The notes: generated from the letters alone by a model not told the origin. Positions 881-5,775 are shown, numbered from the stretch's first letter. The stretch is DNA of 27,381 bases from Candidatus Portnoybacteria bacterium (GCA_030605865.1 JAUWHN010000011.1:1-27381); one strand, 5' to 3'. Translations and numbers: made by a program.

Positions 881-909
881 TTGACATTATTTTAGGATTA
901 TGATAGGAT
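881..909 (+). promoter_or_regulatory. sigma70-type promoter, cassette 1
   Basis: TTGACA(881-886)-17 nt-TAGGAT(904-909) with extended -10 TG; SD AAGGAGG at 933-939. Confidence 0.75.
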
Positions 910-944
910 AGAACGTTGAGCTATCTTTAACAAAGGAGGGACAA

Positions 945-1280
945 TTGTCCAAGAAAAAAGAAATAGAATGGGAAAGCTGGGGTGTTCAACCTCGCGAAGA
1001 TGGCGTTAAACGAATCACAGATCCTTTTCATTGTCTTTATTGTAACTGTACCTCATCCGAGTTAACATTTCATCAGTTTATGATTGGATATTCAGCAGAT
1101 ACAAACTTTATAGTAATGGAATGTCCAGGATGTTTTGGAAAATTTTATCATCACATTGATCAAGGTAATATTAATGCAGTTACGCTTATAGTAGAAGATG
1201 GAAACAAGGACTTTTTTAAAGTTCCTGGCACATATGAAAAACTTTCAAAAATGATTGAGAGACAAAAAAAGAAGAAATGA
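945..1280 (+). CDS. small hypothetical protein, probable Zn-binding (CxxC...CxxC); cassette 1
   Basis: TTG start 5 nt after AAGGAGG; CLYC and CPGC motifs; own promoter and terminator. Confidence 0.75.
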   Translation: MSKKKEIEWESWGVQPREDGVKRITDPFHCLYCNCTSSELTFHQFMIGYSADTNFIVMECPGCFGKFYHHIDQGNINAVTLIVEDGNKDFFKVPGTYEKLSKMIERQKKKK

Positions 1281-1319
1281 GGGGTTTTTTAATTAAGCCA
1301 AAAAGACCTCTCTTTTTTT
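1279..1319 (+). terminator. rho-independent terminator, cassette 1
   Basis: GAGGGGTTTTTT pairs with AAAAAGACCTCTC (with G-U pairs), followed by T7. Confidence 0.7.
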
Positions 1320-1345
1320 ATCCCCAAAACTTTCGGAGGCGTATA

Positions 1346-1376
1346 TTATTTATTCCTCCAACTCAATAAATGGCGT
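1346..1376 (+). repeat. junction repeat copy 1 (truncated after half of the palindrome)
   Basis: TTATTTATTCCTCCAACTCAATAA (1346-1369) is identical to 1576-1599, followed by ATGGCGT. Confidence 0.85.
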
Positions 1377-1378
1377 AG

Positions 1379-1406
1379 TTGACAACTTATTCCAACTCGT
1401 TATACT
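1379..1406 (+). promoter_or_regulatory. sigma70-type promoter driving a non-coding unit
   Basis: TTGACA(1379-1384)-16 nt-TATACT(1401-1406). Confidence 0.7.
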
Positions 1407-1411
1407 AGAAG

Positions 1412-1580
1412 TAGTTAGTACCTTTTGGGAAACGCCTAAGAATTATCTGCCTCTCAATCTCATTCTAAGCTTAAGCATCTATATCTCCACTTTTAGCTTA
1501 TTGTTTAAGCGAAGGCTATGGCGTTTCCCACCTGTTCTTTTATCGAAATATTGCGCCCTTGTTTCGGCAAGGGCCTTATT
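1412..1580 (+). ncRNA. putative structured small RNA of unknown family (RNA cassette)
   Basis: Own promoter; perfect 11-bp closing stem TGGGAAACGCC(1426-1436)/GGCGTTTCCCA(1520-1530); inner stem GCTTAAGCA(1469-1477)/TGTTTAAGC(1502-1510); terminator at 1555-1574; no sizeable ORF on + strand. Confidence 0.55.
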
Positions 1581-1584
1581 TATT
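1555..1584 (+). terminator. terminator of the RNA cassette
   Basis: GCCCTTG-TTTCGG-CAAGGGC followed by a T-rich tract (CTTATTTATT). Confidence 0.65.
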
Positions 1585-1689
1585 CCTCCAACTCAATAAT
1601 AATATGGCGTCATTCAATGACGCCATATTACGTAAAAGGTGGTCAATTACTTGACAAAACATTGGGATGGGAGTATAATGAAAAGTAAG
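1576..1689 (+). repeat. junction repeat copy 2 (about 110 bp: TTATTCCTCCAAC box + 31-bp palindrome + promoter)
   Basis: Aligns to 2691-2796 at roughly 80% identity by manual alignment, with one 4-nt indel; perfect palindrome 1600-1630; promoter TTGACA(1651-1656)-17-TATAAT(1674-1679). Confidence 0.9.
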
Positions 1690-1719
1690 TCAAAAATCAA
1701 AACAAGGAGGTATTAACAA

Positions 1720-2190
1720 ATGAAAAAAACAAAATTCTGGTTGGAACTTCTGTTTGGCTTGTTGCTTCTTTTTCTCGCAATCTTTTTGGTACACGTTGGT
1801 GTAAGTGAAAAAGTAGATATCGACGACTTGGTACTCTTTTATGTTTTTGCGGCCCTCTTTTTCTTTATAGGTGTGCTTTTTCTTATGGCGGCAGGTGGTT
1901 GCATGGCGAGAGGATTTCGGAGAGATTATTTATTAGATAGGATGGAATACAGAAAAGACATTGAATCTCGTGGCAAAGGCAATGACTATGTCAGATTGTT
2001 ATTATCCGAAGCTGATAAAGAGAATAGCTTTCATCCTTCTATAAGTTTCCATTCAATCCACGGCGGTCAGCTTTTAGACAAAAACGGCCATATGTTAACG
2101 AAGCTTCCAGAAACCTTTCTTGTAAGGAAGACGGAAAAAGAAGGAAAAACCGTATATCATATTTTGCCAACCAGAACAAATGAAGCGTAG
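1720..2190 (+). CDS. hypothetical membrane protein (two N-terminal TM helices plus soluble domain); cassette 2
   Basis: SD AAGGAGGT at 1704-1711; two hydrophobic segments; own promoter and terminator. Confidence 0.75.
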   Translation: MKKTKFWLELLFGLLLLFLAIFLVHVGVSEKVDIDDLVLFYVFAALFFFIGVLFLMAAGGCMARGFRRDYLLDRMEYRKDIESRGKGNDYVRLLLSEADKENSFHPSISFHSIHGGQLLDKNGHMLTKLPETFLVRKTEKEGKTVYHILPTRTNEA

Positions 2191-2203
2191 CTTCTGAATT
2201 CTC

Positions 2204-2241
2204 GGGGGTCAGGATTTCGGTCTTGCCCCCCCCTTTTTTTT
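2204..2241 (+). terminator. rho-independent terminator, cassette 2
   Basis: GGGGG-T-CAGGAT-TTCG-GTCTTG-CCCCC followed by T8; UUCG loop. Confidence 0.8.
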
Positions 2242-2270
2242 ATCCTCAAAACTTTCAAGGGGTAAAAGTA

Positions 2271-2298
2271 TTGACAAATTATTGGATTGTGATAGAAT
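2271..2298 (+). promoter_or_regulatory. sigma70-type promoter, cassette 3
   Basis: TTGACA-16-TAGAAT with TG extension; the 26-nt segment starting GGATT matches the cassette 1 promoter at 23/26. Confidence 0.75.
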
Positions 2299-2339
2299 AG
2301 AATGTTGAGTTCTTAAATAATTTATTTTCAGGAGGAATT

Positions 2340-2621
2340 ATGACAGTAAAAGAAAAAGATAAAAAAAGTGTAGTGGTTCTTATTAACTCAGACCCTAGTG
2401 TTAAGGATAAGATTAATAACACAATCCGTGAATTTCTTAAAGAAAAAGGATTAACGACTGGGAAAGAACCCATAGATAAGCCTATTTCAAGCCCATTTAT
2501 TGTTTTTGTCCTTAAAAGAGAGCAGATTGTCTCTCTTAATTTATCTCTTTTTAAAAAAGAATTTTCTGAGAAAACAGGTTTTGTTGCTGAAGAGAATTTT
2601 ATAGTCGTAATCAGGCATTAA
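2340..2621 (+). CDS. small hypothetical protein; cassette 3
   Basis: AGGAGG at 2330-2335; promoter upstream and terminator downstream. Confidence 0.7.
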   Translation: MTVKEKDKKSVVVLINSDPSVKDKINNTIREFLKEKGLTTGKEPIDKPISSPFIVFVLKREQIVSLNLSLFKKEFSEKTGFVAEENFIVVIRH

Positions 2622-2651
2622 TAAAAATCTTAGAGATAAACCAAGTCTTTT

Positions 2652-2692
2652 TAAGCCCCTGGTTCAGGTCAACTGTACTGGGGTGCTTTTTT
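2652..2692 (+). terminator. terminator, cassette 3
   Basis: AAGCCCCTGGT...ACTGGGG-T-GCTT followed by a T-run. Confidence 0.7.
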
Positions 2693-2796
2693 ATTCCTCC
2701 AACTTAATAAATGGCGTCATTGAATGACGCTATTTTACGCAAAGAGCAGTTAATTGCTTGATAAATTATTGGTATGGGTGTAAAATGGAAAGTAAG
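2691..2796 (+). repeat. junction repeat copy 3 (box + palindrome + promoter of cassette 4)
   Basis: Homologous to 1580-1689; palindrome AAATGGCGTCATT-G-AATGACGCTATTT (2709-2735); TTGATA(2758-2763)-17-TAAAAT(2781-2786). Confidence 0.9.
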
Positions 2797-2833
2797 CGTG
2801 GTGCTTATGATTCTTTAACAAAAGGAGTAAACA

Positions 2834-3121
2834 ATGAATGAAACAGAATTTAAAGCAGGAGAACTTTACAAGATTATTGATGTAGGAGAAGGATCTATTG
2901 CTTATCATCCAAACAAAGATGATTATATTAACAAGATAGTTAAACTTATTTATTTCTTTGGCAAGTGGAAAAGCGGCTGGGTAGGATGCAATATTACTTT
3001 CCAGCAGGACTTCACATTGACAGATAAGAGAACTGGAAAAAAAATTCATCGTAAAAAAGGATGGTGGGCTTCTTTTCACGAGGTCAAATTAGAAAAAGTC
3101 CAAATCTTTCTTCTCTACTAA
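2834..3121 (+). CDS. small hypothetical protein, possibly SH3-like beta-barrel; cassette 4
   Basis: SD AAGGAG at 2822-2827; pattern FKAGELYKII...KIVKLI...W..F..VKLEKV. The fold assignment is inference only. Confidence 0.7.
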   Translation: MNETEFKAGELYKIIDVGEGSIAYHPNKDDYINKIVKLIYFFGKWKSGWVGCNITFQQDFTLTDKRTGKKIHRKKGWWASFHEVKLEKVQIFLLY

Positions 3122-3183
3122 GCCCCTAACTCATCAACCTTTATAATGGGTTGTCCAAAACAAATGAGTTAGGGTGCTTTTTT
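3119..3183 (+). terminator. terminator / structured element, cassette 4
   Basis: CCCTAACTCAT(3124-3134)/ATGAGTTAGGG(3164-3174) 11-bp stem, inner CAACC/GGTTG, then T6. Confidence 0.75.
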
Positions 3184-3195
3184 ATTTCAAAACCC

Positions 3196-3224
3196 TTGAC
3201 AAAATATTGATATGGGTGTATAAT
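3196..3224 (+). promoter_or_regulatory. sigma70 consensus promoter, cassette 5
   Basis: TTGACA-17-TATAAT; 26/30 identical to the cassette 2 promoter (1651-1680). Confidence 0.85.
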
Positions 3225-3290
3225 GTAGATATTGAAGAGTGTGGAAGTTCCACAAATCTTTTCTTTGACAATTTTTATTGGAGGAAAAAG

Positions 3291-3566
3291 ATGAAAACTT
3301 CTAAGAAAGTTTTGATTATTGTCTTAGTGTTTACAGTCTTTTTAATATTCATATTGATATTAGCGGCTTATGGGAGTTGGATTGTAAATGCGGTTGTTCA
3401 TGTAGCTACTGCTCTTTTTCAGGGGATTGTTTCTCTGTTTGAGTTTATTTTCTACCCGGATGGATTTTTCCAGCTTTTCGGACCCGTTGGTTCCGGCTTG
3501 GTTATTGGCTTGATAATGGTCTTGATGGTTTTGATTGTTAGGAAACTTTTAGTAATAAAAGTGTAG
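3291..3566 (+). CDS. small membrane protein (two hydrophobic segments); cassette 5
   Basis: GGAGG at 3280-3284 puts the start at ATG 3291 (MKTSKK..., 91 aa), not the GTG at 3174 in the ORF track, which lies upstream of the promoter. Confidence 0.75.
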   Translation: MKTSKKVLIIVLVFTVFLIFILILAAYGSWIVNAVVHVATALFQGIVSLFEFIFYPDGFFQLFGPVGSGLVIGLIMVLMVLIVRKLLVIKV

Positions 3567-3597
3567 TAGGAAATAAGTCATTATTTGAAACAAGAAT

Positions 3598-3630
3598 GGG
3601 GGCTACTTAATAAAGTAGTCCTTTCGTTTT
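3598..3630 (+). terminator. terminator, cassette 5
   Basis: GGGGCTACT-TAATAA-AGTAGTCCT followed by TTCGTTTT. Confidence 0.65.
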
Positions 3631-3657
3631 AATGTTATTTCAAAGAGGGGAATTTTA

Positions 3658-3685
3658 TTGACACCTTTATTTCATTTGTTATACT
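3658..3685 (+). promoter_or_regulatory. sigma70-type promoter driving a hairpin RNA
   Basis: TTGACA(3658-3663)-16-TATACT(3680-3685) with extended -10 TG. Confidence 0.7.
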
Positions 3686-3691
3686 AAATTT

Positions 3692-3765
3692 GCCGGCGGA
3701 CTAGCACCCACAAAAGACGTAGATTTGGGGTTTGTACTTCCGCCGGCTTTCGGTTTTAAAAAGCC
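3692..3765 (+). ncRNA. putative small hairpin RNA or regulatory leader, unknown family
   Basis: Perfect 9-bp GC stem GCCGGCGGA(3692-3700)/TCCGCCGGC(3739-3747) starting at the predicted +1; alternative pairing GGCTTT/AAAGCC (3745-3765). Confidence 0.45.
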
Positions 3766-3813
3766 ACCTCGCAAAATTGGTGATGAGATGGATAATATGA
3801 TAAAATATAAAAG

Positions 3814-5775
3814 ATGAGGAAGATAGCGAAAATTTCAACTGTTATTGTTGTTTTGTTTTTTGTTTTTCATATTCCGGTTTCTTTTGCTGATATTCTGGGC
3901 GAGAGCAAGACTTTTAACGTTGATTCAACTTATGATTCCGAGGGAAGAACTCAAGTTGTTGCCACTGTTAAGCGTGTTAGCGAACGGGCTTATTTTTATA
4001 TAGAAAATAAATGGTGGAATTCATTAAATTCTTATGAAAGGAGCCAGGCCGAGGAAAGCTTAAGGAGTTTGGCCACTGAATTCGATGAAGTTATTTATCC
4101 GGAATTAACTGAGTTTTTCGGCGATATCTGGGATCCTGGAATTGATAATGATTCCCGGATTACTATTTTAATGACCGAGCTTGAAGAAAACGCTGGCGGC
4201 TATTTTAATTCCTGCCATGAGTATACTCGTTCTCGCTGCAGCCGCTCCAATGAACGGGAAATGATTCATGTTAATGTTGACTTTATTTTTGATCGCAAGC
4301 TCAAAGGATTTATTGCTCATGAATTGCAGCATTTGATTAGCTGGAATCAGAAAGAAAAGATAGCTGTGCTTAAAGAGGATATATGGTTGAACGAGATGAG
4401 GAGCGAATATGTTTCCAGTTTACTCGATTATGACGACCCCTATTCGGAAAGCATGTTGGAAATGAGAGTAAAGAACTTTTTGGACGATCATCGTAATCCC
4501 TTGGGAGAATGGAAGGGAGAGTCAGGCGATTACGGAGTAATTGCTCTTTTGGGGAATTATATAGCTAATCAGTTTGGCGAGAATTTATTTTCTTTAATGT
4601 CTAAAAATAATTTAGTTGGTATAACCAGTATTAATAAGGCCTTTCAGGAAGCTGGCTATACTGAGGATTTTGGTGAAGTTTTTACTAACTGGAGCCTGGC
4701 TAATTATTATAATAGTTTGGCAATAGGTCGGGGTGGAAAATATGGTTATACCAATCCGTATCTTAAAAGAATTCATATTTCACCAACCTTAAATAGATTT
4801 TATTCTTACAGCGTTGTTAATTTTTCAGAGGAAGTCAAAGATTGGTCTCCTCGTTGGTATCTGTTTCAAAATAAATTATCTTCTCAAGACGAATCCATTG
4901 CTTTAAAAATAGAATTCGAGAGTTCTAATCAAAAAACTAATTTTAGAGTGCCTTATGTGATTCATTATAAAGATGGTAGCTATGAAATAGGGCATTTTAT
5001 AAATCTCGAGAATCAGGCTGGGGCTGTTTATATCTTTAATTTTGCCAAAGATGTCGGGTCCGTGTTAGTGGTGCCAGCAAATCATTCAAAAACAGCTAAT
5101 TTTACTAATAGTGATTCTTCAACCCGATTTACCCTGAAAGCTTCAACAGTTGTTGTTAATCAACCAGTGATTAGCAGTATTTCTCCTTCTGAAGGCCCGC
5201 TCTCTGGTAATAATACAGTTGTGATTAAAGGAGGTAATTTTCAAAGAGGAATTGAAGTTTATTTTGGCGGGGTGAAATCTCCAAATATTGTTTTTATAAA
5301 TGAAACGACATTGAATGTCGTTATTCCTCCCCATGAAGCTGGTTTTGTTAATGTTTGGTTAAGAAATCCTGATGAAAAAAGCAGTGTTTTTGCTCAAGGA
5401 TATGAGTATAGCAGGGGCATTATTACTGACGGTTCATTAATCAGGGCTAGAGGCGATTACAAAGTTTATATTGTCCAGGGCGGATACAAGCGTCATATTT
5501 TGGACGGCAGTATTTTTGATTTTTATGGGCATTTGAACTGGGCAAATATTATAGAAGTAACTCCGGAAGAACGGGATTTTTACAGAGACAGTGCCTGGTT
5601 CAGGGCAGCTGGCGATGCCAAAGTTTACGAAGTCAATAATGACAAGACCAAGCACTGGCTCAATATGACTGCTGAAGAGTTTTATGTTTCGGGCAGGAGA
5701 TGGGAAGGGGTTTTTGTAATAAATAATCAAGAGAGAGATTTTTATAGGACAGGAGCGAGCGTGCTTTATAGATAG
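3814..5775 (+). CDS. secreted zinc metalloprotease-like protein with IPT/TIG domain and C-terminal repeated surface domain
   Basis: Signal peptide (..VSFA/D); HELQH (HExxH) plus downstream WLNEMRSE; ISSISPSEGPLSGNNTVVIKGGNF (IPT/TIG); duplicated C-terminal GDYKVY/GDAKVY repeats. Confidence 0.75.
   Translation: MRKIAKISTVIVVLFFVFHIPVSFADILGESKTFNVDSTYDSEGRTQVVATVKRVSERAYFYIENKWWNSLNSYERSQAEESLRSLATEFDEVIYPELTEFFGDIWDPGIDNDSRITILMTELEENAGGYFNSCHEYTRSRCSRSNEREMIHVNVDFIFDRKLKGFIAHELQHLISWNQKEKIAVLKEDIWLNEMRSEYVSSLLDYDDPYSESMLEMRVKNFLDDHRNPLGEWKGESGDYGVIALLGNYIANQFGENLFSLMSKNNLVGITSINKAFQEAGYTEDFGEVFTNWSLANYYNSLAIGRGGKYGYTNPYLKRIHISPTLNRFYSYSVVNFSEEVKDWSPRWYLFQNKLSSQDESIALKIEFESSNQKTNFRVPYVIHYKDGSYEIGHFINLENQAGAVYIFNFAKDVGSVLVVPANHSKTANFTNSDSSTRFTLKASTVVVNQPVISSISPSEGPLSGNNTVVIKGGNFQRGIEVYFGGVKSPNIVFINETTLNVVIPPHEAGFVNVWLRNPDEKSSVFAQGYEYSRGIITDGSLIRARGDYKVYIVQGGYKRHILDGSIFDFYGHLNWANIIEVTPEERDFYRDSAWFRAAGDAKVYEVNNDKTKHWLNMTAEEFYVSGRRWEGVFVINNQERDFYRTGASVLYR

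What the first reader, a model, noticed from the sequence alone, without database searches (positions are those of the whole stretch)
1600..1630. 31-bp perfect palindrome at a fixed distance from cassette promoters, with a compensatory change between copies
Seen: TAATATGGCGTCATT-C-AATGACGCCATATTA has 15-bp perfect arms and a 1-nt centre. The second copy (2709-2735) changes the unpaired centre (C to G), has one G-T pair, and swaps T:A for A:T at position +/-12, preserving symmetry. In both copies the centre is exactly 36 bp upstream of the -35 box (about -71 from the predicted TSS). Established: tyrosine-recombinase core sites normally have an asymmetric 6-8 bp spacer, which this lacks. Inference: it is either a dimeric regulator site (a class-I-activator-like position) co-regulating cassettes, or a cruciform/ssDNA hairpin used by an HUH-type nickase.
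Basis: partly seen in the sequence, partly recalled or inferred. Interest (0 to 1): 0.65.

Follow-up and report, generated by a model that had tools for sequence, protein, structure and literature searches.

The report
Orphan REP-like hairpin at cassette promoters
The 31-bp palindrome is real, but it is most likely a stray copy of the DNA hairpin that brackets a hairpin-cutting (Y1/HUH, RAYT-like) transposase gene in related tiny-genome bacteria. Its equal distance from two promoters comes from duplication of a whole promoter block, not from a regulator site.

Summary
Window 1600-1630 is a perfect palindrome with 15-nt arms and a 1-nt centre. A second copy is centred at 2722, and both centres lie 36 nt before a -35 box.

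The two copies are not independent. They sit in a duplicated block of about 115 nt (flank, palindrome, promoter, start of the leader), so the equal spacing is inherited. In homologous loci the spacing is 36, 38, 43 or 57 nt. Homologues of both downstream genes also occur with promoters that lack the palindrome.

A metagenome scan found the same palindrome upstream of, in frame inside, and at the stop codon of a Y1_Tnp (HUH) gene on three contigs. The window's own 505-kb Patescibacteria-like genome has two such genes, each with a different hairpin in that layout. So did nearly all of 30 loci from class relatives.

Related palindromes in this genome and in other contigs keep their symmetry through paired changes (7 of 15 pairs). 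The centre is only ever C or G.

Best reading: an orphan REP-like hairpin whose matching enzyme gene is missing from this 91%-complete assembly. The regulator reading is not supported; the HUH-hairpin reading is. This scan has met the same Y1-hairpin system in many other Patescibacteria genomes. No RNA data were available.

The parts
1600..1630 (.). Palindrome copy 1: 15-nt perfect arms, centre C at 1615 (GGCGTCATT-type hairpin)
   Evidence: (I10)
2709..2735 (.). Palindrome copy 2: 13-nt arms, centre G at 2722, one G-T at +/-9
   Evidence: (I25)
1370..1376 (+). Truncated left arm (ATGGCGT) following a third copy of the flank and running straight into the -35 box of the RNA-only cassette. The same junction is kept in L031, L035, L036 and L037
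   Evidence: (D2)
1346..1369 (+). Flank repeat, copy 1 (a 20-nt core also precedes both palindromes; found nowhere else in the genome)
   Evidence: D2
1576..1599 (+). Flank repeat, copy 2, immediately 5' of palindrome copy 1
   Evidence: D2
2687..2710 (+). Flank repeat, copy 3, immediately 5' of palindrome copy 2
   Evidence: D2
1631..1689 (+). Spacer, promoter (TTGACA 1651, TATAAT 1674) and start of the leader. This is the rest of the duplicated promoter module, upstream of the 156-aa ORF
   Evidence: (D1)
2738..2796 (+). Paralogous spacer, promoter (TTGATA 2758, TAAAAT 2781) and start of the leader, upstream of the 95-aa ORF
   Evidence: (D1)
1555..1574 (+). Canonical terminator hairpin of the preceding RNA cassette, 25 nt before palindrome copy 1
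1720..2190 (+). 156-aa ORFan with a membrane-like N-terminus, downstream of copy 1. No Pfam or NCBIfam match. Homologues are 49-88% identical, some with palindrome-less promoters
2834..3121 (+). 95-aa ORFan downstream of copy 2. Homologues are 80-89% identical; L041 has no palindrome
5298..5328 (.). Related palindrome (CGACATT variant, 9-nt perfect arms) inside the TIG-domain gene 3814-5775. The right-arm 11-mer (with 2 mismatches) stands at the corresponding place of the L035 orthologue (L035 9233-9243)

Best explanation
The palindrome is an orphan member of a REP-like hairpin family that belongs to a Y1 (HUH) transposase-like gene family of Patescibacteria.

Shown:
- The identical GGCGTCATT-type palindrome stands upstream of, in frame inside, and at the stop codon of a Y1_Tnp gene on three metagenome contigs.
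- Every Y1 gene examined, including the two in this genome, carries its own hairpin in that layout.
- The hairpin sequence drifts stepwise as the enzyme diverges.
- The arms co-vary.

Inferred:
- The element works as a folded single strand of DNA that the enzyme binds and nicks, as RAYT/TnpA-REP and IS200/IS605 TnpA do. Copies were seeded away from the gene in that way.
- The matching enzyme gene has been lost from this genome, or lies in the unassembled 9%.
- The two window copies then spread passively, as the 5' edge of a promoter module of roughly 85-90 nt. This module was duplicated and recombined among small ORFan cassettes. That gives the identical 36-nt distance to the -35 box.
- Any present local effect is probably minor, for example a weak extra stop to read-through from the preceding cassette.
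For: - Same palindrome at the three Y1-gene positions in L043 (centres 2072, 1836, 1286), L048 (2055, 2300, 2850) and L090.
- The genes match PF01797 at E 1e-10 to 1e-12.
- The window genome's Y1 genes have other hairpins in the same layout: C37 upstream 13565, inside 13775, at the stop 14308; C49 is flanked at 1572, 1674 and 3232. L049's Y1 gene does likewise.
- Of 30 Y1 loci from class relatives, about 19 have the same or a near-identical hairpin on both sides by script. Five of six more checked by eye do too (L054-L059; L056 and L059 were also in the script count), and in L056-L058 the two copies are clearly in inverted orientation.
- The hairpin changes stepwise with protein identity to L043. 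It is GGCGTCATT at 79-100%, CGACATT at 73-74%, and a larger-loop CGAC form at 72%.
- The HUH histidines and a tyrosine are invariant in five Y1 proteins.
- In 20 family members, 7 of 15 pairs change on both sides, 90% of cells are paired, and 0 of 500 shuffles reach the observed score.
- The centre is C or G in all Patescibacteria-type copies and flips between orthologous sites.
- Spacing to the promoter is 36, 38, 43 or 57 nt, or there is no promoter.
- Palindrome-less promoters serve homologues of both downstream genes.
- The equal spacing in the window lies inside a duplicated block.
Against: - No Y1 gene of the matching clade is in this assembly. The two present are 52% and 39% identical to the L043 enzyme and have other hairpins.
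- Copy number is very low: 2 copies, or 6 counting related variants.
- No binding or cleavage has been tested, and no RNA data could be laid.
- In three lineages (window, L038/L039, L049) the palindrome sits at the 5' edge of the promoter module, with the 36-nt spacing kept in most copies. A promoter-linked role is therefore not excluded.
- By my reading, the copy after the Y1 stop codon in L043/L048 also lies 36-37 nt before a TTGACA, with an unrelated spacer. I cannot explain this.
- Paired changes in a DNA palindrome can also arise by template switching, without selection.
Confidence: 0.72

Rival explanations
1. Operator for a dimeric transcription factor that co-regulates the cassettes from about -71, as a class-I activator or upstream repressor would.
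For: - A perfect inverted repeat at the same distance (36 nt) from two consensus promoters in the window.
- The same distance in three of four modules of L049.
- The palindrome is always at the 5' edge of the conserved promoter module.
Against: - The equal distance is inherited with a duplicated block.
- Orthologues and paralogues have 38, 43 and 57 nt, which breaks helical phase.
- Homologues of both genes run from promoters without the site.
- Related copies lie in ORFs, after tRNA-Trp and after a terminator, with no promoter.
- Arm bases co-vary within a single genome.
- 15-nt perfect arms are far longer than usual half-sites (general knowledge).
- No DNA-binding domain was found in the five small cassette ORFs of the window.
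Confidence: 0.07
2. Its main role is at the RNA level. It acts as an extra, possibly bidirectional, intrinsic terminator or insulator hairpin between cassettes, as many REPs do.
For: - The RNA folds are stable. Copy 1 gives -18.9 kcal/mol on the + strand and -21.5 on the - strand; copy 2 gives -14.8 and -12.5.
- Copy 2 is flagged as terminator-like on the - strand.
- In L043, L044, L047 and L048 the same stem is flanked by A5 and T5 runs, the shape of a two-way terminator.
- The mismatches in two copies are G-T on the + strand.
Against: - Copy 1 has no T-run on the + strand and copy 2 has only four T.
- Each window copy lies within about 30 nt downstream of a canonical terminator with a clear T-run, so it would be redundant.
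- L049:4254 has an A-C mismatch in cassette orientation.
- Variants in the window genome have AT-rich stems.
- Copies inside reading frames cannot be terminators.
- This reading does not explain the link to Y1 genes.
Confidence: 0.11
3. Recombination site of a cassette-shuffling system, either integron-attC-like or a Y1-driven equivalent. The hairpin would mark the points where promoter-ORFan cassettes are cut out and joined.
For: - The palindrome lies at cassette junctions, and cassette order differs among close relatives. Window: RNA1, 156 aa, 93 aa, 95 aa, 91 aa. L031: RNA1, 95 aa, 158 aa. L038: RNA1, 158 aa, 95 aa. L040: 158 aa, RNA2.
- L049 has four palindrome-promoter modules in a row, next to an rve transposase gene and a Y1 gene.
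- A truncated arm at 1370-1376 marks an old breakpoint inside the palindrome.
Against: - The only tyrosine recombinase in the genome is Xer-like, not an integron integrase: 218 bits to the XerC/XerD models against 93 bits (cut-off 265) to the integron integrase model.
- The arms are perfect, with no extrahelical bases or R/L boxes.
- Other breakpoints lie inside promoters that have no palindrome.
- Junctions are blurred across shared terminator-flank-promoter homology, as expected from ordinary homologous recombination.
- The Y1 gene next to the L049 array has a different hairpin.
Confidence: 0.1

Closest known systems
REP / REPIN elements with RAYT (TnpA-REP) genes, 'REPtrons' of Proteobacteria (PMC3116915, PMC3333891, PMC8266576, PMC3733652)
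   Same: - A short hairpin-forming palindrome.
- The same palindrome flanks a single-domain Y1 HUH gene on both sides, in inverted orientation where the orientation can be read.
- Each enzyme lineage has its own hairpin.
- Orphan copies lie downstream of genes and near terminators.
- Some copies lie inside genes.
   Different: - Copy number is tiny: 2 here, against hundreds in Proteobacteria.
- There is no unpaired GTAG or CGTC tag.
- The arms are perfect with a 1-nt centre.
- The enzyme scores 35-42 bits against the NCBIfam REP-transposase model, whose cut-off is 80.
- The enzyme is about 230 aa, with a conserved C-terminal extension.
- A third hairpin copy is read in frame inside the enzyme gene.
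- Here the matching enzyme gene is absent from the genome.
IS200/IS605 insertion sequences (IS608, ISDra2 TnpA; PDB 2XM3)
   Same: A Y1 HUH enzyme gene bracketed by hairpins that are recognised as single-stranded DNA. The only PDB sequence matches are weak, to ISDra2 TnpA (E 0.15), with the HUH motif aligned.
   Different: - The Y1 paralogues within one genome are old and divergent, not fresh identical copies.
- There is no sign that the gene-plus-hairpin unit itself transposes.
- The hairpins are the same sequence at both ends, rather than distinct left and right ends.
Y1-hairpin units of Patescibacteria noted earlier in this scan (e1-788396, e1-685636, e1-4914113 and others)
   Same: The same gene family and the same three-position hairpin layout. 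I re-found it independently in this genome (C37) and in L043, L048, L049, L090 and L091.
   Different: Those notes describe the enzyme gene with its hairpins. This finding is a pair of orphan copies with no enzyme gene, embedded in a duplicated promoter module of an ORFan cassette array.
Rickettsia palindromic elements (RPEs; from my own knowledge, not checked here)
   Same: Palindromic repeats that can sit in frame inside protein-coding genes as well as between genes.
   Different: RPEs are 100-150 bp and have no known dedicated enzyme. The window copies are intergenic.
Integron attC sites
   Same: A hairpin-forming site at the junctions of small, variable gene cassettes.
   Different: attC sites are imperfect, carry extrahelical bases and conserved R/L boxes, need an IntI integrase, and their cassettes usually lack promoters. 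None of this holds here.

Membership tests
REP/RAYT (REPtron) system | Short (20-40 nt) palindrome able to fold as a single-strand hairpin | tested here: met
   31 nt with 15-nt perfect arms. The DNA fold is -14.0 kcal/mol, z -6.95.
REP/RAYT (REPtron) system | The same palindrome flanks a Y1 (RAYT-type) gene on both sides | tested here: met
   Met in relatives: L043, L048 and L090 carry the GGCGTCATT-type palindrome upstream, inside and at the stop of a PF01797 gene. Not met in the window's own genome, whose two Y1 genes carry other hairpins.
REP/RAYT (REPtron) system | High copy number, mostly extragenic | tested here: not met
   There are 2 copies in 505 kb with up to 3 mismatches, or 6 counting co-varying variants. 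Two of those six lie inside ORFs.
REP/RAYT (REPtron) system | Unpaired GTAG or CGTC tag at one end (PMC3733652) | tested here: not met
   The flanks are A/T-rich with no GTAG. CGTC occurs only inside the stem.
REP/RAYT (REPtron) system | Enzyme reaches the curated REP-associated tyrosine transposase model (NF047646) | tested here: not met
   Scores are 34.5-41.6 bits against a cut-off of 80, and C49 has no match. Pfam Y1_Tnp is passed by L043 and L048 (41-47 bits, cut-off 23) and by C37 (26.4 bits); C49 (21.4) and L049 (22.2) fall just below it.
REP/RAYT (REPtron) system | HUH motif and catalytic tyrosine present | tested here: met
   In five aligned proteins H86, H88 and Y146 are invariant (numbering of the first sequence). 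The HUH motif aligns with that of ISDra2 TnpA. Which tyrosine is catalytic is my inference.
REP/RAYT (REPtron) system | Enzyme binds and cleaves the folded single strand | not testable with these tools
   This needs purified protein and oligonucleotides.
IS200/IS605 insertion sequence | Several near-identical copies of the whole gene-plus-ends unit in a genome | tested here: not met
   The two Y1 genes of this genome are far apart (E 3e-73 and 2e-39 against the same query). Multi-copy relatives show equally spread scores.
Transcription-factor operator (class-I-activator-like) | Fixed distance and helical phase to the -35 box across homologous promoters | tested here: not met
   Spacings are 36, 38, 43 and 57 nt. 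Several family members have no promoter within 160 nt.
Transcription-factor operator (class-I-activator-like) | The site accompanies the regulated gene's promoter in relatives | tested here: not met
   The 158-aa homologues in L031/L032, the 152-aa homologue in L033 and the 102-aa homologue in L041 have promoters without it.
Transcription-factor operator (class-I-activator-like) | A cognate DNA-binding regulator exists | not tested
   The five small cassette ORFs of the window have no Pfam hit, and four of them were also searched in NCBIfam without a hit. The rest of the proteome was not screened for regulators.
Intrinsic terminator | G+C-rich stem followed by a U-run on the transcribed strand | tested here: inconclusive
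   The stems are stable. Copy 1 has no T-run on the + strand, copy 2 has four T, and only copy 2 on the - strand passes the scan. Versions in relatives have A5/T5 flanks.
Integron attC site | Imperfect palindrome with extrahelical bases and R/L boxes, plus an IntI integrase in the genome | tested here: not met
   The arms are perfect. The single tyrosine recombinase is Xer-like: 218 bits to XerC/XerD, 93 bits to the integron integrase model (cut-off 265).

The most novel reading that the evidence does not exclude
The hairpin plus promoter is a mobile 'promoter head'. Y1 enzymes, acting in trans on the hairpin at the 5' edge of each module, would cut and rejoin promoter-ORFan cassettes. Arrays like window 881-3765 and L049 1300-4300 would then be an HUH-driven counterpart of an integron, supplying expression signals to newly acquired small genes in ultra-small genomes.
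Probability: 0.08. Interest if true: 0.75.

Novelty: new variant of a known kind. Interest (0 to 1): 0.34.

Why it matters
This explains a striking perfect palindrome without invoking a new regulator, and it shows that the 'fixed distance plus compensatory change' argument was created by a block duplication.

It also adds a detail to the Patescibacteria Y1-hairpin system, which I did not find described in two full-text searches. Orphan hairpins outlive their enzyme gene, drift in step with the enzyme clade, and can ride on duplicated promoter modules in front of unrelated ORFan genes.

If the hairpins turned out to guide cassette exchange, that would bear on how bacteria with 0.5-Mb genomes renew their variable small-protein repertoire.

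Tried and rejected
- Rfam scan of the whole window at E up to 1: only two chance-level hits, none at the palindrome.
- Core pattern in 60 relatives: nothing except one 2-mismatch hit in G059.
- BLASTN of the cassette region against the order: the palindrome region is not conserved at genus level. Only the RNA2 unit and a promoter consensus are.
- Core pattern in 185,579 species genomes: 19 loci. I estimate roughly nine singletons would be expected by chance. The excess is a GTAG-tagged REP family of Anaerolineae sharing the 19-nt core. None of the 19 core-pattern loci (11 of them from that group) encodes a relative of the CPR enzyme. The three Y1 genes of the MAG with most copies are not flanked by that REP. 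I treat the shared core as coincidence.
- A strand argument from G-T mismatches: two copies have G-T on the + strand, but L049:4254 has A-C in the same orientation. Dropped.
- A conserved nick motif: TTAC follows most copies in the window, L031-L040 and L049 (L049:1704 has TTGC; L038:341 and L039:14 have a TA insertion), but not the Y1-flanking copies in L043/L048. Dropped.
- PDB sequence search with one Y1 protein found nothing. A profile search gave only E 0.15 to ISDra2 TnpA.
- No structure prediction was run, because it would not discriminate between the readings.

Full report
OBSERVATION

The sequence at window 1600-1630 is a palindrome with two perfectly complementary 15-nt arms around a single C at 1615 (pair I10). 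A second copy is centred on G at 2722. It has 13-nt arms, one G-T at +/-9, and A:T at +/-12 where copy 1 has T:A (I25).

The -35 hexamers of the two downstream consensus promoters start at 1651 and 2758, each 36 nt from its centre.

Chance is excluded. The 19-nt core with up to 3 mismatches matched in none of 100 shuffles. The DNA folds have z-scores of -5.0 to -7.0 on the + strand.

The two copies are not independent, however. An 86-nt direct repeat at 80% identity runs from the palindrome through the -10 box into the leader. A flank repeat lies directly 5' of it, in three copies with a 20-nt core found nowhere else in the genome (D1 and D2). The third flank copy (1346-1369) is followed by only the first 7 nt of the left arm and then the -35 box of an RNA-only cassette. 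So 'same distance in both copies' is a single duplication.

CONTEXT

The window is contig C29 of a 505-kb, 36% G+C, 91%-complete genome in 49 contigs. Its relatives have genomes of 0.5-1.2 Mb. Public sources name the Y1 proteins discussed below as Patescibacteria, Parcubacteria or Minisyncoccia.

Window 881-3765 is a run of small co-oriented units, each with its own promoter and terminator. The five ORFs have no Pfam match, and four of them were also searched in NCBIfam without a match. The run lies between a lamin-tail-domain protein and a TIG-domain protein, followed by murB, hpf and secA.

The core pattern occurs only twice in the genome. It was not found in 60 relatives, apart from one 2-mismatch hit.

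HOMOLOGOUS LOCI

Homologues of the 156-aa ORF (49-88% identity) and of the 95-aa ORF (80-89%) were found in metagenomes and their contigs fetched. The palindrome is kept at the corresponding places, with informative changes:
- In L031, L035, L036 and L037, +/-9 is A:T. This is a change on both sides relative to copy 1, and window copy 2 is the G-T intermediate.
- L038:1024 has two G-T pairs.
- The centre letter flips between C and G even between orthologous sites.

The distance from the centre to the -35 box varies:
- 36 nt in the window and in three modules of L049;
- 38 nt in L038:341 and L039:14;
- 43 nt in L049:3132;
- 57 nt in L040.

The same genes also occur behind promoters with no palindrome at all: the 158-aa gene in L031/L032, the 152-aa gene in L033, and the 102-aa gene in L041.

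THE LINK TO AN HUH ENZYME

A scan of metagenome contigs for the palindrome, with its variable positions left open, returned eight contigs.

In L043 and L048 the palindrome, there flanked by A5 and T5 runs, stands in three places relative to one gene of 232-235 aa. It lies about 70-90 nt upstream of the start, in frame inside the gene, and just past the stop. That gene matches Pfam Y1_Tnp at E 1e-10 to 1e-12. A third gene, 82% identical (L090), has the same three copies, with 19-nt arms upstream.

The window's own genome has two genes of this family.
- The C37 gene carries a different hairpin upstream (13565), in frame inside (13775) and at the stop (14308). Orphan copies of that hairpin lie in another ORF (C37:11958) and between genes (C9:3728).
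- The C49 gene is flanked by a third hairpin type.
- L049's Y1 gene shows the same layout with a fourth hairpin type.

The gene family is widespread. Of 151 genomes of the class, 82 have at least one homologue, with up to nine listed matches per genome. Of 30 loci fetched, about 19 have the same or a near-identical hairpin on both sides by an automatic scan. Five of six more checked by eye do too (L054-L059; L056 and L059 were also in the scripted count), clearly in inverted orientation in L056-L058.

The hairpin changes stepwise with the enzyme's identity to L043:
- GGCGTCATT-type at 79-100% identity;
- CGACATT-type at 73-74%;
- a larger-loop CGAC form at 72%.

The proteins keep the HUH histidines and a tyrosine invariant. 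They align weakly with ISDra2 TnpA (E 0.15). They match the NCBIfam REP-associated tyrosine transposase model at 35-42 bits, below its cut-off of 80.

THE PALINDROME FAMILY IN THIS GENOME

A search that left +/-1 and +/-5 free to be asymmetric found four more members besides the two window copies:
- C23:527, inside an ORF;
- C28:6285, just after a canonical terminator;
- C44:4603, 6 nt after tRNA-Trp;
- window 5313, inside the TIG gene.

All six are symmetric at the free positions. These four are of the CGACAT(T/C) type that flanks the 73-74% enzymes.

Twenty family members were aligned without gaps. They are 90% paired, and 7 of 15 pairs change on both sides. The covariation score is 0.258, against 0.108 in shuffles, with 0 of 500 shuffles reaching it; slid controls score far lower.

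Two caveats apply. Part of the set was collected with a pattern that fixes much of the stem. Paired changes in DNA palindromes can also arise by template switching. Either way the signal points to a folded strand rather than to a fixed protein-DNA code.

The centre is C or G in all Patescibacteria-type copies and never A or T. That is what flipping of a hairpin loop, or insertion in either orientation, would give.

MECHANISM

The shown facts are the shared identity of the palindrome with the hairpin of one Y1 clade, the conserved three-position layout, the co-variation, and the block duplication. From these I infer the following.
- The element is a REP-like hairpin that the Y1 enzyme recognises on single-stranded DNA. 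This is how RAYT/TnpA-REP and IS200/IS605 TnpA work (PMC3333891, PMC8266576, PMC6006769).
- Copies were once seeded away from the gene by that enzyme.
- The enzyme gene of the matching clade was then lost, or lies in the unassembled 9%.
- The window copies have since been carried along as the 5' edge of a promoter module that recombines among ORFan cassettes.

That module (palindrome, 20-nt spacer, promoter, first bases of the leader) stands in front of at least six unrelated genes in the window and L049.

RIVALS

Operator for a regulator (0.07). Spacing, presence and sequence all vary, as set out above.

RNA terminator or insulator as the main role (0.11). The stems are stable, and versions in relatives look like two-way terminators. 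But the window copies lack a proper T-run on the + strand and sit within about 30 nt downstream of a canonical terminator.

Cassette recombination site (0.10). Cassette order does differ among relatives, and the palindrome lies at several junctions. But other junctions lie inside palindrome-less promoters, the homology is blurred as in ordinary recombination, and the only tyrosine recombinase is Xer-like.

COMPARISON AND NOVELTY

The closest described systems are REP/REPIN-RAYT units of Proteobacteria and IS200/IS605. This element works like the former, but it fails several membership features: copy number, the GTAG/CGTC tag, and the curated enzyme model.

Two literature searches found no paper that treats RAYT or REP elements in Patescibacteria. 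Quentin et al. 2018 (PMC6006769) does not mention these phyla.

Within this scan the Y1-hairpin unit of Patescibacteria has been noted many times. I confirmed its layout independently here.

What this finding adds is the orphan state and the ride on a duplicated promoter module. I rate it a new variant of a known kind, of modest interest.

NOT DONE

Noticed in passing
window 3658-3799: A promoter plus hairpin RNA-like unit just before the TIG-protein gene is 81-95% identical in four other genera of the family, while the rest of the cassette region is not conserved. It has no Rfam match above chance. It is probably a conserved small RNA or leader.
   Followed up: partly
window 1379-1575: An RNA-only cassette (promoter, about 140 nt with long-range pairing, terminator) is kept with the same truncated-palindrome junction in L031, L035, L036 and L037; in L038 only its terminator, on the contig's first bases, could be seen. 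It has no Rfam match.
   Followed up: partly
L003, L006, L007, L009, L014, L015, L018 (one Anaerolineae MAG, handle G161) and L004, L017, L021: A GTAG-tagged REP family of Anaerolineae shares the exact 19-nt core of the window palindrome (L016, from another Anaerolineae MAG, has the core without the tag). There are 8 copies in a 3.3-Mb MAG. Its three Y1 genes are not flanked by the REP. This is probably coincidence, but a cross-phylum link was not excluded.
   Followed up: partly
own genome C37:13565-14346; orphans at C37:11958-11982 and C9:3728-3752: A complete Y1 unit in the window's genome. Its own hairpin lies upstream, in frame inside (coding GGVGGSTSH) and at the stop, plus an extra right arm. 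Two orphan copies exist, one inside another ORF.
   Followed up: yes
own genome C14:1640, C14:21301, C18:8850, C39:4674; C26:1943, C31:8711, C31:10544, C38:3556: Two further families of roughly 31-nt palindromes with a 1-nt centre and A/T-run flanks have no Y1 gene beside them. Copies occur in both orientations. This genome holds five hairpin families but only two Y1 genes.
   Followed up: partly
L049 1300-6300: An array of four palindrome-promoter modules drives small genes, two of them ankyrin-repeat proteins. Next to it lie an rve-type transposase gene and a Y1 gene with its own hairpin. A copy of that hairpin also lies inside a 690-aa ORF of the window's genome (C6:6210-6232).
   Followed up: partly
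window 3187-3238 and 1650-1680, 2757-2787: The extended promoter sequence (-35 box, spacer, G-rich stretch before the -10 box) recurs in other genera of the order at 81-95% identity over about 30-50 nt. The 'paralogous promoters' may therefore partly reflect a long lineage-wide promoter consensus.
   Followed up: no
L031 5045-5135 and L032 150-250 versus window 3181-3230 and 1680-1719: In L031/L032 the 158-aa gene is driven by the promoter that precedes the 91-aa gene in the window, joined to the 158-aa gene's own leader. This is a crossover inside the promoter or leader.
   Followed up: partly
L044 52-125: The A5/T5-flanked palindrome is directly followed by a second hairpin. It has the same outer stem as L043:2072 (CTGGCGT...ACGCCAG) but a different apical part.
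   Followed up: no
L043 1240-1270 (minus strand) and L048 2866-2895: The palindrome copy after the Y1 stop codon lies 36-37 nt before a TTGACA hexamer, with a spacer unrelated to the window's (my count). The -10 box is weak and the site was not flagged. I cannot explain this echo of the 36-nt spacing.
   Followed up: no
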